A program made the position numbers and the translations under genes. Positions 18,990-20,772 of a stretch of DNA of 64,000 bases are shown here, one piece after another. Below the pieces are notes generated by a model, which was given only the letters and a program-made list of their open reading frames with translations, was not told the origin of the DNA and ran no database searches. Numbering within the stretch: the first letter of the stretch is position 1; each line of letters begins with the position of its first letter. The stretch comes from a virus (taxonomy: Duplodnaviria > Heunggongvirae > Uroviricota > Caudoviricetes): positions 52,898 through 116,897 of the IMG/VR virus record IMGVR_UViG_3300028887_000069; one strand, given 5' to 3'.

Positions 18990-20018
18990 ATGATTAAAAG
19001 CATAACATTTACAGGAGAAAGAGGGTACATCGGAGAACGATGGACTGAAAAAGACAAACCTGCCAAACCCAAGAAAACTGATTGTCGGTACAGGAAATAT
19101 TCGTTCGAAACCCACCGTGATGTGGTTGACGACGAGAAATTCAATGACGACATGGAACGGTATAAGGAAGAAATGAAGACATACCGAAAGGTTAAGAATC
19201 AATACAAAGTATCCTGTTCCGAAATCCTTGTCGGTCGCAAGTTCGAATTCGCATCAGACAAAATAAACCTTATCTTCGGTCCAAATGCCTCGGGCAAGAC
19301 CACAATCATCAAGGGAATTGCGGCACATGCTTTCTGCAAGGACGGCTTTTCCTCATTTGTCAGACCGATTGATTTCCGCATTGGGTTTGGCGAAAAACGG
19401 GCACCTGAGAAATATACCGCAGAATTACTAAACTTAATAGGCAACACCTCAAGCGTGGTGGAGTGGGACGGAAGCCCGATTTATTTCCATAATTTCGACA
19501 ATCGCCCGAACTATGGGTCCATCGGCGACTTGCAGGGTTCGATTATCGAGAATACGGCCGAAGAGCTAATGTATATTATGGATAAAAACCAACAGTCGGC
19601 AGGACAGACCATGTTCTATCAGTTCCACAAACTCGCGGGCATGATGTCAAGGAACGTGACCTACGACGATTTGCTGAACAAGCCATACGGGAAATACGGC
19701 AAATCGGATAAGGACAACCCGTGGCGCTTGGCATATGACGCACAGGAAGCATACTACAGGTCGTTCCCGATGGCATACAACCCAAACGGACAGAACACCT
19801 ACCTCTTCGATGAAATCGACAAGTCGATGGACATACTGAACATACATGCACTCTATGCAAGCATATTGCCAGGCATGATGAAAAAGTACAACAAACAAAT
19901 CATAATCATATCACACTCCCCGATAGTGCTAAGTGATGAAGTTTATAACTCCGACAAGTACAACTTCATCTCGATGGATGAGGAATACACAGAGAAATGT
20001 AGGAAAATTTTATCATAA
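18990..20018 (+). CDS. ABC-type (AAA_21-like) ATPase, 342 aa
   Basis: Walker A IFGPNASGKTT; signature-like QSAGQ; Walker B YLFDEID; H-loop IIIISHSP. Confidence 0.6.
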   Translation: MIKSITFTGERGYIGERWTEKDKPAKPKKTDCRYRKYSFETHRDVVDDEKFNDDMERYKEEMKTYRKVKNQYKVSCSEILVGRKFEFASDKINLIFGPNASGKTTIIKGIAAHAFCKDGFSSFVRPIDFRIGFGEKRAPEKYTAELLNLIGNTSSVVEWDGSPIYFHNFDNRPNYGSIGDLQGSIIENTAEELMYIMDKNQQSAGQTMFYQFHKLAGMMSRNVTYDDLLNKPYGKYGKSDKDNPWRLAYDAQEAYYRSFPMAYNPNGQNTYLFDEIDKSMDILNIHALYASILPGMMKKYNKQIIIISHSPIVLSDEVYNSDKYNFISMDEEYTEKCRKILS

Positions 20019-20025
20019 AAAACAT

Positions 20026-20772
20026 ATGGAGAAAATCAATTTCACACACATTGAACAATACGACACCTCAAAGGTGAAAGTTATTCCCTTCTCCCGTTCG
20101 GGTATGGAATGGAATGGGTGTGACATCAGTTTCGGTAACATGAATCCAGAATATCCTGTAGAGGTTTTCGGTGTGAAGTATCCTTGCCCCGAATATGTCT
20201 ATATACTTGGGTTTTATGGGAAAAACGATACCGATTGCATTAGGATACAGGAGGAGATAAAGAACTTCAAGGGTGGTGCCAAGGCATTGAAGGGTGTGTA
20301 CAGGAAAGACCCGAACTACATCTTGCACGGCAGACCCGATTTCAACAAGAGTGAATGGCATTATCACCTGATGCTATACGCTGTATGGCAGAAATGCTTG
20401 CAGAACAAGAAATTCGCTGACATGCTGTTGGCAATTCCCGATGACTATGTTATTGTCGAGAGCCAAAACGGTTTTCACGGGTGGTCGTTGGCCGATTGGG
20501 GATGCAAGAACAACATTGCCCACAGACTGTACATGGAGGAAAAGAAAAGGATAGAAGAAATGTACGGGAGCGCCAACGGTGTGGTGAAAATGCGTGACGA
20601 TGCAAAAATCAGAATTGGACAGACAGAGGGTGTATGGATAGGCATGAACCACCAAGGCAAAATACTGATGGCTTGCAGGGAGGCTTTGTGTAACAACTGT
20701 GAACCCCCGATTGATTACAAGGCACTGAACGATGCCGAGATATATTTTTATGGAAAAGAAGTTAAATTTTAA
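20026..20772 (+). CDS. NADAR (YbiA-like, DUF1768) domain protein
   Basis: FGNMNPEYPVEVFGVKYPCPEYVYILGFYG...HLMLYAVWQKCLQNKKFADMLL fits the NADAR pattern. Start taken at the ATG 8 nt after the ATPase stop. Confidence 0.5.
   Translation: MEKINFTHIEQYDTSKVKVIPFSRSGMEWNGCDISFGNMNPEYPVEVFGVKYPCPEYVYILGFYGKNDTDCIRIQEEIKNFKGGAKALKGVYRKDPNYILHGRPDFNKSEWHYHLMLYAVWQKCLQNKKFADMLLAIPDDYVIVESQNGFHGWSLADWGCKNNIAHRLYMEEKKRIEEMYGSANGVVKMRDDAKIRIGQTEGVWIGMNHQGKILMACREALCNNCEPPIDYKALNDAEIYFYGKEVKF

What the first reader, a model, noticed from the sequence alone, without database searches (positions are those of the whole stretch)
18990..20772. ABC-type ATPase plus NADAR gene pair between the sigma factor and cas12: candidate counter-defence or DNA-ADP-ribosylation-reversal module
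The two genes are separated by 8 nt. The ATPase has Walker A/B, an LSGGQ-like QSAGQ motif and an H-loop, an AAA_21-like layout that is common in defence-associated modules. NADAR domains hydrolyse ADP-ribose linked to guanine, as established for DarT-type toxin-antitoxin pairs.

A phage copy could neutralise host ADP-ribosylating defences. Alternatively the pair could be a mobile defence cargo carried alongside the CRISPR system.
Basis: inference. Interest (0 to 1): 0.6.

Follow-up and report, generated by a model that had tools for sequence, protein, structure and literature searches.

The report
Phage NADAR gene beside unrelated ATPase
Both genes are real, an ABC-type ATPase and a NADAR-fold sugar-base bond hydrolase in a huge CasLambda-carrying phage, but they are not a conserved pair, and the NADAR is best read as one more of the orphan NADARs that large phages commonly carry.

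Summary
The sequence observation holds. Window 18990-20018 encodes a 342-aa ABC-type ATPase with every catalytic motif. Window 20026-20772 encodes a 248-aa NADAR-fold protein. The gap between them is 7 nt, not 8.

The "gene pair" reading fails:
- None of 14 loci holding ATPase relatives carries a NADAR.
- No locus holding a NADAR relative carries the ATPase, apart from two copies of this same phage.

In related phages the NADAR instead abuts a 474-aa protein with phosphoribosyltransferase (PRTase)-like motifs (window 23774-25198, minus strand). In this window, CasLambda and its CRISPR array sit between those two genes.

The closest characterised relative by profile is the NADAR of the E. coli PRTase+NADAR defence system DS-32 (hhalign 98.8%). 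It is not DarG1 or T4 AdfN.

Most likely this is an orphan N-glycosidase used in counter-defence. That is a new member of a known kind, and the ATPase is an independent jumbo-phage gene. Interest is modest.

The parts
18990..20018 (+). ABC-type (AAA_21/AAA_23-like) ATPase of 342 aa. It belongs to a family found on metagenomic jumbo-phage contigs. It is not linked to the NADAR outside this phage.
20026..20772 (+). NADAR-fold N-glycosidase of 248 aa. It has a YbiA-like core, a helical insertion of about 40 aa (residues ~163-201) and N- and C-terminal extensions.
20785..23130 (+). CasLambda (Cas12l-type) effector of 781 aa. Read here as an insertion between the NADAR gene and its lineage-conserved neighbour.
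   Evidence: phmmer against PDB: 9izp Cas Lambda2 E 2.2e-145 and 8dc2 CasLambda E 7.6e-134. It is absent from the equivalent junction in L003, L118 and L123.
23181..23480 (+). CRISPR array of five 36-nt repeats with a 65-66 nt period and two repeat variants. Decayed repeat-like copies follow, reaching about 23718.
23774..25198 (-). 474-aa protein with ComF/type-I PRTase-like motifs (…PVPSSSNFN… and …IFVIFDDNVSGGATLSD…). In related phages it is the conserved convergent neighbour of the NADAR gene.
   Evidence: 63% identical to the gene abutting the NADAR in L003. 81% and 75% relatives abut a NADAR in L118 and L123. A distant 366-aa version sits next to a NADAR in L010 and hits ComF at E 4.4e-5. 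Weak PRT-fold hits recur in 7 of 26 members. Relatives are fused to cREC or to inorganic pyrophosphatase.
17805..18821 (+). Phage sigma-70-type factor, the upstream neighbour (context only).
   Evidence: Pfam Sigma70_r2 at 3.9e-14 and PHROG 351 at 2.3e-25.

Best explanation
These are two independent accessory genes of a CasLambda-encoding jumbo phage, probably one infecting rumen or gut Bacteroidales. They happen to lie next to each other and are probably co-transcribed.

**The NADAR gene (20026-20772).** It encodes an active NADAR-superfamily N-glycosidase. E56 and E145 flank the ribose C1'' position, and K89, R93, F106 and W158 hold the diphosphate, as in the Phytophthora NADAR-ADP-ribose structure. 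The protein would cut the bond between a ribose (ADP-ribose, possibly 5-phosphoribose) and a nucleobase nitrogen.

Its most likely role is that of an orphan 'eraser'. Made during infection, it would strip ribosyl adducts that host toxin-type defences place on phage DNA or nucleotides, in the manner of AdfN against DarT1. This family's nearest characterised relative is the NADAR of the PRTase+NADAR system DS-32.

**The ATPase (18990-20018).** It is a soluble ABC ATPase that dimerises and hydrolyses ATP. It belongs to a family spread through jumbo phages on its own, and its cellular task cannot be read from context.

**Shown:** the genes, the folds, motif conservation, the lack of co-conservation, and the NADAR-474aa synteny.
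**Inferred:** enzymatic activity, substrate and counter-defence role.
For: **NADAR fold and active site**
- Fold.
- From the profile alignment to 8bau, P. nicotianae E43, K75, R79 and W89 correspond to E56, K89, R93 and F106. By motif correspondence (VIVE and DWG), which is my inference, E125, D130 and W133 correspond to E145, D157 and W158.
- The roles of these residues come from PMC11543638.
- All four NADAR subtypes tested so far hydrolyse guanine-ADPr in vitro, YbiA type included (PMC11125620). YbiA-type enzymes also remove cytidine-ADPr (PMC12945103).

**Precedent in phages**
- Orphan phage NADARs from unrelated clades neutralise DarTG1 (PMC11825919).
- NADARs occur in about 48% of medium and jumbo phages (PMC9503650).

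**Relationship to DS-32B**
- The family profile matches DS-32B at 98.8%, E 9.7e-17, over 177 columns.
- DS32_2 is the best NCBIfam hit for every member tested.
- DS-32B-like NADARs occur in 115 deposited phage records. The two I examined have no PRTase nearby.

**Mobile-element context of bacterial relatives**
- Two checked relatives sit beside DUF3987/VirE-like primase and HU genes.
- SprT-like, methyltransferase-like and recombinase-like genes recur among the 79 bacterial loci, and one Prevotella genome holds three copies.

**Independence of the ATPase**
- 0 of 14 ATPase loci carry a NADAR within about 5-6 kb, and the downstream gene differs in nearly every lineage.
- NADAR relatives have other upstream neighbours: an unrelated 171-aa gene, a 125-aa gene, a UvrD helicase, or divergent genes.
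Against: - The lysine seven residues after the first catalytic glutamate (K50 in P. nicotianae, K95 in E. coli C7) is needed for efficient guanine-ADPr hydrolysis. Here it is F63, and it is not conserved anywhere in the family. Activity or substrate may therefore differ from the characterised enzymes.
- No DarT, YarT or DS-32A-like toxin was shown to exist in the presumed hosts.
- In vitro activity of a NADAR does not predict in vivo protection (PMC11125620).
- No relative of this protein was found in 50,697 deposited phage genomes at E<=1e-3, so it is not close to any tested AdfN.
- The 7-nt and 12-nt gaps between ATPase, NADAR and CasLambda do suggest one transcript. Co-expression with the ATPase therefore cannot be excluded.
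Confidence: 0.5

Rival explanations
1. The NADAR's real partner is the 474-aa PRTase-like protein. Together they form a phage-borne writer/eraser pair. The PRTase-like enzyme would put a phosphoribosyl-type group on a base or nucleotide, and the NADAR would take it off. This is the same domain logic as the E. coli defence system DS-32. The pair could serve self-modification, exclusion of competing phages, or a toxin-antitoxin-like addiction function.
For: - NADAR and the 474-aa gene are convergent and abutting (4-nt overlap) in L123 and L118, and adjacent in L003 and L004.
- In L118 the neighbour is 81% identical to the window's 474-aa protein, but the NADAR there is only 31% identical to the window's. 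A different NADAR clade therefore occupies the same position.
- In the unrelated 282-kb contig L010, a 23%-identical short version is divergently adjacent to a NADAR.
- PRT-fold signals: ComF at 4.4e-5 for the L010 protein, recurrent weak hits to OPRT, Prs, HGPRT, ComF and GntX, plus fusions to inorganic pyrophosphatase and cREC.
- DS-32 is a PRTase plus a NADAR.
- E. coli ybiA also sits with the PRT-like ybiB and the helicase dinG.
Against: - The 474-aa family shows no detectable similarity to DS-32A (hhalign 0.2%).
- The family is widespread in jumbo phages without a NADAR. 0 of 15 IMG/VR loci have one within 10 kb, so it does not need a NADAR.
- The genes are convergent or divergent, not one operon.
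- Synteny among close relatives can be inheritance. The 3' end of the 474-aa gene may simply be an insertion hotspot, since CasLambda also landed there.
- The PRTase assignment rests on motifs and sub-threshold hits only.
Confidence: 0.2
2. The NADAR acts on soluble molecules rather than on DNA. It would degrade ADP-ribose-derived immune signals or toxins, or recycle ADPr-type compounds within the phage's own NAD+ economy.
For: [quoted passage not shown]
- In L118 the NADAR lies within 10 kb of NAMPT, NAD synthase and an NAD-dependent DNA ligase.
- The window itself has an NAD-dependent ligase about 9 kb away.
- Relatives of the 474-aa neighbour are fused to cREC, a domain tied to ADPr and cyclic-phosphate processing.
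- A NUDIX gene lies near the NADAR in L003.
Against: - Every experimentally tested NADAR activity other than YbiA's riboflavin-intermediate role is on nucleic-acid-linked ADPr.
- No NAD+-salvage gene is adjacent in the window.
- The soluble-substrate idea remains a prediction in the cited papers.
Confidence: 0.18
3. The ATPase and NADAR form a functional two-gene module, either counter-defence or defence cargo that moves with the CRISPR locus. The ATPase would sense or remodel the target, and the NADAR would be the effector.
For: - Same strand, a 7-nt gap, and then 12 nt to CasLambda.
- A NADAR is a component of a validated defence system, DS-32.
Against: - No co-occurrence anywhere except identical copies of this contig.
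- ATPase relatives have unrelated downstream genes.
- NADAR relatives have unrelated upstream genes.
- The other CasLambda locus lacks both genes.
- PADLOC finds nothing for the NADAR.
Confidence: 0.06

Closest known systems
AdfN, the orphan phage NADARs that neutralise DarTG1 (T4 gp30.3, AdfN-Bas32, AdfN-Bas60; PMC11825919)
   Same: A stand-alone NADAR-fold protein encoded by a large phage with no adjacent ADP-ribosyltransferase. The expected chemistry is removal of ADP-ribose from a base, and the expected role is counter-defence.
   Different: No detectable sequence relationship to any deposited phage genome (tblastn no match). It has the YbiA-type glutamate in the last strand rather than the histidine of T4-like NADARs. 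It has a roughly 40-aa helical insertion and lacks the phosphate-binding lysine. The presumed host group (Bacteroidales) is not known from this work to carry DarT1.
DS-32, the E. coli two-gene anti-phage system of PRTase (DS-32A) plus NADAR (DS-32B) (DefensePredictor; bioRxiv 10.1101/2025.01.08.631726 and PMC13092281)
   Same: The NADAR family here is homologous to DS-32B over almost its whole length, including the C-terminal extension (hhalign 98.8%; best NCBIfam hit). In related phages a protein with PRTase-like motifs is the conserved neighbour.
   Different: Scores lie far below the NCBIfam equivalog cut-off (33-68 bits against 240). The neighbour shows no similarity to DS-32A. The genes are convergent, not an operon. 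The genes sit in a phage, not in a bacterial defence locus. DS-32B lacks the helical insertion.
DarG1, the NADAR antitoxin of DarTG1 (BC4488 subfamily; PDB 8bat; PMC11543638)
   Same: The same superfamily fold and the same first catalytic glutamate.
E. coli YbiA and Phytophthora nicotianae NADAR (PDB 2b3w, 8bau)
   Different: Only 18-23% identity. The E+7 lysine is absent. The context is a phage or mobile element, not the riboflavin or LexA-regulon setting.
Soluble ABC ATPases of the SMC/RecF/OLD/PtuA/AriA class (Pfam AAA_21, AAA_23)

Membership tests
NADAR superfamily (Pfam PF08719) | YbiA-like alpha+beta fold: a helical core flanked by two small beta sheets. | tested here: met
NADAR superfamily (Pfam PF08719) | Sequence profile match at the curated threshold. 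| tested here: inconclusive
   The window protein scores 21.6 bits against a cut-off of 35.1, E 2.8e-4. Most of its 139 homologues carry PF08719. The family profile matches a bona fide NADAR (DS-32B) at 98.8%.
NADAR superfamily (Pfam PF08719) | [quoted passage not shown] | tested here: met
   E56 and E145 are invariant in 30 sequences. E56 aligns to E43. E145 is matched to E125 by the VIVE motif and the DS-32B alignment, which is my inference. Residue roles come from PMC11543638.
NADARs with the full characterised guanine-ADPr hydrolase residue set (E. coli C7 E88/K95/D171) | Phosphate-binding lysine seven residues after the catalytic glutamate (K95 in C7, K50 in P. nicotianae). | tested here: not met
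   The position is F63 here and is A, G, C, N or E in relatives. K89 and R93 (equivalent to K75 and R79) and the family-specific K212 are conserved, but whether they compensate is unknown.
YbiA subfamily of NADAR | Glutamate, not aspartate or histidine, in the last beta strand, on a 'naked' YbiA core without extensions. | tested here: inconclusive
DarTG1 (DarT1 + NADAR toxin-antitoxin) | An adjacent DarT1 ADP-ribosyltransferase gene. | tested here: not met
   Neighbours in the window and in the related phage loci are the ATPase, CasLambda, the 474-aa protein, UvrD and small ORFs. Among the 79 bacterial loci, the eight recurrent neighbour families that were scanned gave no ART or DarT hit, and five gave no Pfam hit at all. 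Not every neighbouring gene was scanned.
DarTG1 (DarT1 + NADAR toxin-antitoxin) | BC4488-type NADAR with aspartate in the last strand. | tested here: not met
AdfN (anti-DarT factor NADAR) | A phage-encoded orphan NADAR. | tested here: met
   The protein lies on a 364,702-bp contig together with CasLambda and jumbo-phage-type genes, and no transferase is adjacent.
AdfN (anti-DarT factor NADAR) | Reverses DarT1 guanine ADP-ribosylation and rescues phage on DarTG1 hosts. | not testable with these tools
   This needs biochemistry and plaque assays.
DS-32 (PRTase + NADAR defence system) | A NADAR protein equivalent to DS-32B. | tested here: inconclusive
   The homology is clear (hhalign 98.8%, E 9.7e-17). 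NCBIfam NF053876 scores 33-68 bits against a cut-off of 240, so this is a relative, not an equivalog.
DS-32 (PRTase + NADAR defence system) | A co-oriented adjacent gene homologous to the DS-32A PRTase. | tested here: not met
   tblastn with DS-32A finds nothing significant in the window or in the loci searched (best E 0.43). The 474-aa family against DS-32A gives hhalign 0.2%. The lineage-conserved neighbour is convergent.
ABC ATPase superfamily (AAA_21/AAA_23) | Walker A, signature motif, Walker B with catalytic glutamate, H-loop, and an ABC fold. | tested here: met
ATPase-plus-effector defence pairs (PARIS AriAB, Gabija, Septu, AbiL and similar) | A conserved adjacent effector gene that co-varies with the ATPase. 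| tested here: not met
   The downstream gene differs between ATPase lineages (114, 217, 103, 71, 181 and 154 aa, and others) and none resembles the NADAR.

The most novel reading that the evidence does not exclude
Jumbo phages of this lineage may carry their own PRTase-like/NADAR pair. This would be a phosphoribosyl (or ADP-ribosyl) writer and eraser with the same domain logic as the bacterial defence system DS-32, but built from a non-homologous, uncharacterised PRTase-like family that is widespread in huge phages. The NADAR slot has been refilled by a different NADAR clade in a close relative. In this phage it has been split from its partner by insertion of a CasLambda-CRISPR locus. A related reading is that phage DS-32B-like NADARs are orphan antitoxins that disarm DS-32-type PRTase effectors. 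That would extend the AdfN principle from ADP-ribosylation to phosphoribosylation.
Probability: 0.2. Interest if true: 0.6.

Novelty: new member of a known kind. Interest (0 to 1): 0.3.

Why it matters
Orphan NADARs in phages are already an established counter-defence idea, and nearly half of medium and large phages are reported to carry one. This gene therefore extends a known theme to huge CasLambda phages, probably of Bacteroidales.

The useful corrections are these:
- The neighbouring ATPase is not part of a module with the NADAR.
- The protein is not DarG1-like.
- Its nearest characterised relative is the NADAR of DS-32, a defence system whose mechanism is unknown.
- In this phage lineage the NADAR travels with an unannotated protein family carrying PRTase-like motifs.

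If the NADAR-PRTase-like link is functional, it would give a handle on what DS-32-type PRTase/NADAR chemistry does. It would also assign a role to a large jumbo-phage protein family that has no annotation.

Tried and rejected
**Searches of deposited phage genomes**
- Megablast of 16000-25200 against 50,697 phage records found no match.
- tblastn with the NADAR, the ATPase and the 474-aa protein each found no match.

**Sequence searches against PDB**
- The NADAR protein alone gave only noise.
- The NADAR family profile gave weak YbiA and 8bau hits (E 0.024 and 0.81). These were useful for residue mapping but not as proof.
- The ATPase alone gave only P-loop noise.
- The 474-aa family profile gave only coiled-coil noise.

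**Checks on possible hidden relatives**
- PADLOC on the NADAR gave nothing.
- The 171-aa gene upstream of the NADAR in L003 is not a truncated ATPase; there is no similarity.
- The 217-aa gene downstream of an ATPase homologue in L007 is not a divergent NADAR.

**Looking for a DarT-like partner**
- Among the 79 bacterial NADAR loci, the commonest neighbour (a 353-aa family) and four other recurrent families have no Pfam hit. The other scanned families are SprT-like, an HTH-containing methyltransferase-like protein and formylglutamate amidohydrolase. Nothing ART-like was seen.
- DS-32A homologues were sought in all fetched loci, in the window, and beside two DS-32B-like phage NADARs. None was found.

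**Other tests**
- The single additional CasLambda locus was checked for the ATPase, NADAR and 474-aa genes. None is present.
- The promoter and terminator scan of 17600-25400 found no more sites than shuffled sequence, so it says nothing about operon structure.
Active-site geometry and a possible compensating lysine could therefore not be measured.
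Full report
**What is in the sequence**

Window 18990-20018 (+) is a 342-aa ORF and 20026-20772 (+) is a 248-aa ORF. The ATPase stop codon ends at 20018 and the next ATG is at 20026, which leaves 7 nt between them rather than 8. The same two genes, with the same starts, are called in independent public copies of this contig (L001 and L002). One contig carrying the identical NADAR protein is 364,702 bp long.

The surrounding genes on the + strand are:
- a TnpB/Cas12f-like gene at 16015-17712;
- a sigma-70-type factor at 17805-18821;
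- the ATPase and the NADAR;
- a 781-aa gene at 20785-23130, starting 12 nt after the NADAR stop codon;
- a five-repeat CRISPR array at about 23181-23480.

The 781-aa protein is CasLambda (E 2.2e-145 to PDB 9izp and 7.6e-134 to 8dc2). A 474-aa gene lies on the minus strand at 23774-25198.

**The ATPase**

Pfam AAA_21 scores above its threshold (40.1 bits against 27), with weaker SMC_N and AAA_23 hits. In an alignment of 22 homologues the catalytic motifs are invariant or nearly so:
- Walker A, GPNASGKTT;
- the SxGQ signature, QSAGQ in this protein;
- Walker B with its catalytic glutamate, FDEID;
- the SHSP H-loop.

A specific 'defence ATPase' affinity is not demonstrated.

The family has at least 280 members at 32-65% identity. 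The members whose context I examined lie on contigs of roughly 135-673 kb made up mostly of small unannotated genes, which is typical of jumbo phages. One member is deposited as 'uncultured Methanobrevibacter' on a 408-kb contig of this kind, which is probably a binning error.

**The NADAR**

Pfam alone is sub-threshold (21.6 bits against 35.1) and covers only the C-terminal half of the model. The protein does have 139 homologues. Most are proteins of about 254 aa from Bacteroides, Prevotella and Muribaculaceae that carry PF08719 and are named NADAR family proteins by NCBI.

An AF2 model built on a 30-sequence alignment has pLDDT 93.1. Its structural matches are:

| Search | Hit | Score |
|---|---|---|
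| Foldseek vs PDB | E. coli YbiA | E 1.5e-4 |
| Foldseek vs PDB | P. nicotianae NADAR | E 4.3e-4 |
| Foldseek vs PDB | next hit | E 0.5 |

The fold assignment is secure.

**Active site**

I used the profile alignment to 8bau and the residue roles given by Schuller et al. 2023 (PMC11543638). The alignment covers the first half of the domain. The last three correspondences in the table rest on the VIVE and DWG motifs and on the DS-32B alignment, and are my inference.

| P. nicotianae residue | Residue here | Status |
|---|---|---|
| E43 | E56 | invariant in the family |
| K75 | K89 | invariant in the family |
| R79 | R93 | conserved |
| W89 | F106 | F or W in the family |
| E125 | E145 | invariant in the family |
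| D130 | D157 | variable in the family |
| W133 | W158 | invariant in the family |
| K50 (= K95 in E. coli C7) | F63 | not conserved |
| R93 | H112 | not conserved |

K95 is required for efficient guanine-ADPr hydrolysis and for antitoxin function in the E. coli C7 enzyme, so its absence matters. The last-strand residue is the YbiA-type glutamate. It is not the aspartate of DarT1-linked NADARs or the histidine of T4-like phage NADARs.

The protein is larger than a bare YbiA domain. It has a two-helix insertion of about 40 aa between the WG and GxN motifs (residues ~163-201), and it has terminal extensions.

**Is the ATPase-NADAR pair a module?**

No. I collected 14 non-identical loci holding ATPase relatives: L005-L009 and L012-L020. 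None has a NADAR within about 5-6 kb. The gene immediately downstream of the ATPase differs from lineage to lineage, at 114, 217, 103, 71, 181 and 154 aa and others. The one candidate I tested is unrelated to NADAR.

The converse also holds. The NADAR-relative loci I tested by tblastn (L003, L004, L010, L011) lack the ATPase. In the clustering of the first 99 loci, which include the 79 bacterial NADAR loci, the ATPase family occurs only in L001, L002 and the 14 ATPase loci. The gene calls for the further phage loci L115-L120 and L123 show no ATPase either.

The upstream neighbour of the NADAR varies among phage relatives:
- an unrelated 171-aa gene in L003;
- a 125-aa gene in L123;
- a UvrD helicase in L118;
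- divergently oriented genes in L115.

The adjacency in the window is therefore specific to this phage. The short gaps make co-transcription likely but say nothing more. The promoter and terminator scan was no better than shuffled sequence.

**What the NADAR does travel with**

In related phages the NADAR abuts the orthologue of the window's 474-aa gene:
- In L003 and L004 the NADAR is about 62% identical and the neighbour 63% identical.
- In L123 the NADAR is 68% identical and the neighbour 75% identical, convergent with a 4-nt overlap.
- In L118-L120 the neighbour is 81% identical.

In L118 the NADAR at that position is only 31% identical to the window's and belongs to another branch of the family. 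The slot has therefore been refilled, or the site attracts such genes.

In the unrelated 282-kb contig L010, a distant 366-aa version of the neighbour (23% identical) lies divergently next to yet another NADAR.

In the window, CasLambda plus the CRISPR array occupy exactly the interval between the two convergent genes. I read this as an insertion of about 3 kb. The only other CasLambda locus I found (47% identical) has no ATPase, NADAR or 474-aa gene nearby. This argues against the idea of defence cargo travelling with CRISPR, although it is a single locus.

**The 474-aa protein**

It has no Pfam hit. It does show the two hallmark motifs of ComF-like type-I phosphoribosyltransferases: …PVPSSSNFN… and …IFVIFDDNVSGGATLSD…. 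The supporting evidence is:
- Across 26 family members, weak hits to the C-terminal motif region recur: orotate-PRT-like in 7 members, ribose-phosphate diphosphokinase in 7, HGPRT in 4, APRT in 3, and ComF and GntX in 2 each.
- The L010 version hits ComF at E 4.4e-5.
- Many relatives are fused to the cREC domain, and some to an inorganic pyrophosphatase. A pyrophosphatase fusion makes chemical sense for an enzyme that releases pyrophosphate.

The family has at least 481 members, many on large phage-like contigs. It usually occurs without a NADAR: 0 of 15 IMG/VR loci have one within 10 kb. The PRTase assignment is an inference from motifs and sub-threshold hits.

**Comparison with known systems**

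Phage NADARs are common and well discussed. About 48% of medium and jumbo phages are reported to carry one (PMC9503650). Orphan phage NADARs (AdfN) from three unrelated clades neutralise DarTG1 by removing guanine-ADPr from phage DNA (PMC11825919). All tested NADAR subtypes hydrolyse guanine-ADPr in vitro, although in vivo protection is highly specific (PMC11125620). YbiA-type NADARs also remove cytidine-ADPr (PMC12945103).

The protein here is not close to any of these:
- No deposited phage genome matches it.
- It is structurally nearer to YbiA than to DarG1.
- PADLOC finds nothing.

Its best NCBIfam match, and that of every relative tested, is NF053876. That model describes the NADAR of DS-32, an experimentally validated E. 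coli two-gene defence system made of a PRTase and a NADAR. I took the DS-32 sequences from the paper's supplement and compared them directly:
- The NADAR family profile aligns to DS-32B at 98.8% probability (E 9.7e-17, 177 columns), including the C-terminal extension.
- The 474-aa family shows no similarity to DS-32A (0.2%).
- No DS-32A homologue is present in the window or in the loci searched.

DS-32B-like NADARs occur in 115 deposited phage records. The two I inspected have no PRTase nearby.

This gene is therefore not a member of DS-32 or of DarTG1. It is an orphan phage NADAR whose nearest characterised relative is a defence-system NADAR, which is the situation that defined AdfN.

**Bacterial relatives**

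The 79 genomic loci are all assigned to Bacteroidales, apart from one bin labelled Staphylococcus. Several copies can occur in one genome; Prevotella pectinovora P4-76 has three. Two checked relatives sit beside DUF3987/VirE-like primase-helicase and HU-like genes. Among the bacterial loci, genes recurring within the 6-kb flanks include an SprT-like protease, an HTH-containing methyltransferase-like protein, a SAM synthetase and a serine-recombinase-like protein. These are mobile-element settings. They fit a gene that helps incoming DNA survive, although that remains an inference.

**Verdict**

*Best explanation (about 0.5).* An active NADAR N-glycosidase serves the phage as an orphan eraser of ribosyl adducts that host toxin-type defences place on DNA or nucleotides. 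The ATPase is an unrelated jumbo-phage ABC ATPase that merely sits upstream.

*Main rivals.*
- A functional PRTase-like/NADAR pair: about 0.2.
- A soluble-ADPr or NAD+-economy role: about 0.18. It is supported by the NAMPT, NAD synthase and NAD-ligase neighbours in L118 and by the cREC fusions.

*Main caveats.*
- The conserved lysine is missing.
- No target transferase has been identified in the presumed hosts.

*Novelty and interest.* This is a new member of a known kind, and interest is modest. The most novel reading still open is the PRTase-like/NADAR writer-eraser pair, or an anti-DS-32 role.

Noticed in passing
window 20785-23130 (+), with the array at 23181-23480: The 'cas12' is CasLambda (E 2e-145 to PDB 9izp). 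Its array has two repeat variants: two copies of ACTGTGTTGAGATACACTTTTAGAGGTATTTACAAC, then three of ACTGTGTTGGAATACAATATGAGATGTATTTACAAC. A further degenerate repeat copy lies at 23699-23718. The whole locus sits between two convergent genes that abut each other in related phages, so it looks like an insertion.
   Followed up: partly
window 23774-25198 (-): A 474-aa protein with no Pfam hit belongs to a large family (at least 481 members), many of them on large phage-like contigs. It has ComF-like PRTase motifs, and relatives are fused to cREC (PF20274) or to inorganic pyrophosphatase (PF18823). It appears to be an unannotated, widespread huge-phage enzyme family.
   Followed up: partly
window 16015-17712 (+): A 565-aa TnpB/Cas12f-like RNA-guided nuclease homologue (Pfam Cas12f1-like_TNB 9e-18; NCBIfam guided_TnpB 91.7 bits against a cut-off of 100) lies just upstream of the sigma factor. 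No Y1 transposase is obvious next to it. Whether it has its own guide RNA was not examined.
   Followed up: no
L118 6320-16323 and window 27024-31650 (-): In a related phage the NADAR lies in a run with a UvrD helicase, an NAD-dependent DNA ligase, KTSC, NAD synthase and NAMPT. The window has the UvrD helicase (27024-28790) and the NAD-dependent ligase (29572-31650) in a rearranged order. This recalls the E. coli dinG-ybiB-ybiA arrangement of helicase, PRT-like protein and NADAR.
   Followed up: partly
L021-L099 (bacterial loci); L124 and L126: The same NADAR family is widespread in Bacteroidales genomes, sometimes in several copies per genome. Checked examples sit in mobile-element-like islands with a DUF3987/VirE-like primase and an HU-like gene. 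SprT-like, methyltransferase-like and SAM synthetase genes recur among the loci. A 353-aa coiled-coil protein with no Pfam hit lies within three genes downstream in 26 cases, spread over at most 28 loci.
   Followed up: partly
P0005 and P0010 (NADAR homologues); L070 1288-2199 (representative of the methyltransferase-like neighbour family): Some NADAR homologues carry an N-terminal HTH-like extension (…YNP…ENA…G.SEA.(I/V)R(K/R)YI…I(D/N)RR…). The same kind of extension heads a methyltransferase-like protein family found near NADARs in several Bacteroidales loci. This suggests a shared regulatory or DNA-binding module.
   Followed up: no
window 25703-26131 (+), 8829-9683 (+), 11381-13864 (-): An SprT-like metalloprotease, a Dam-type N6-adenine methyltransferase and a ClpB-like double-AAA protein lie in the same region. 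SprT-like genes also recur near the bacterial NADAR homologues.
   Followed up: no
L007 (408-kb contig): A contig holding an ATPase homologue, whose product is deposited at NCBI as 'uncultured Methanobrevibacter sp.', has the gene content of a jumbo phage: arrays of small ORFs, Thg1, a poly(A) polymerase-like protein, NUDIX and cREC. It is probably a binning error.
   Followed up: no
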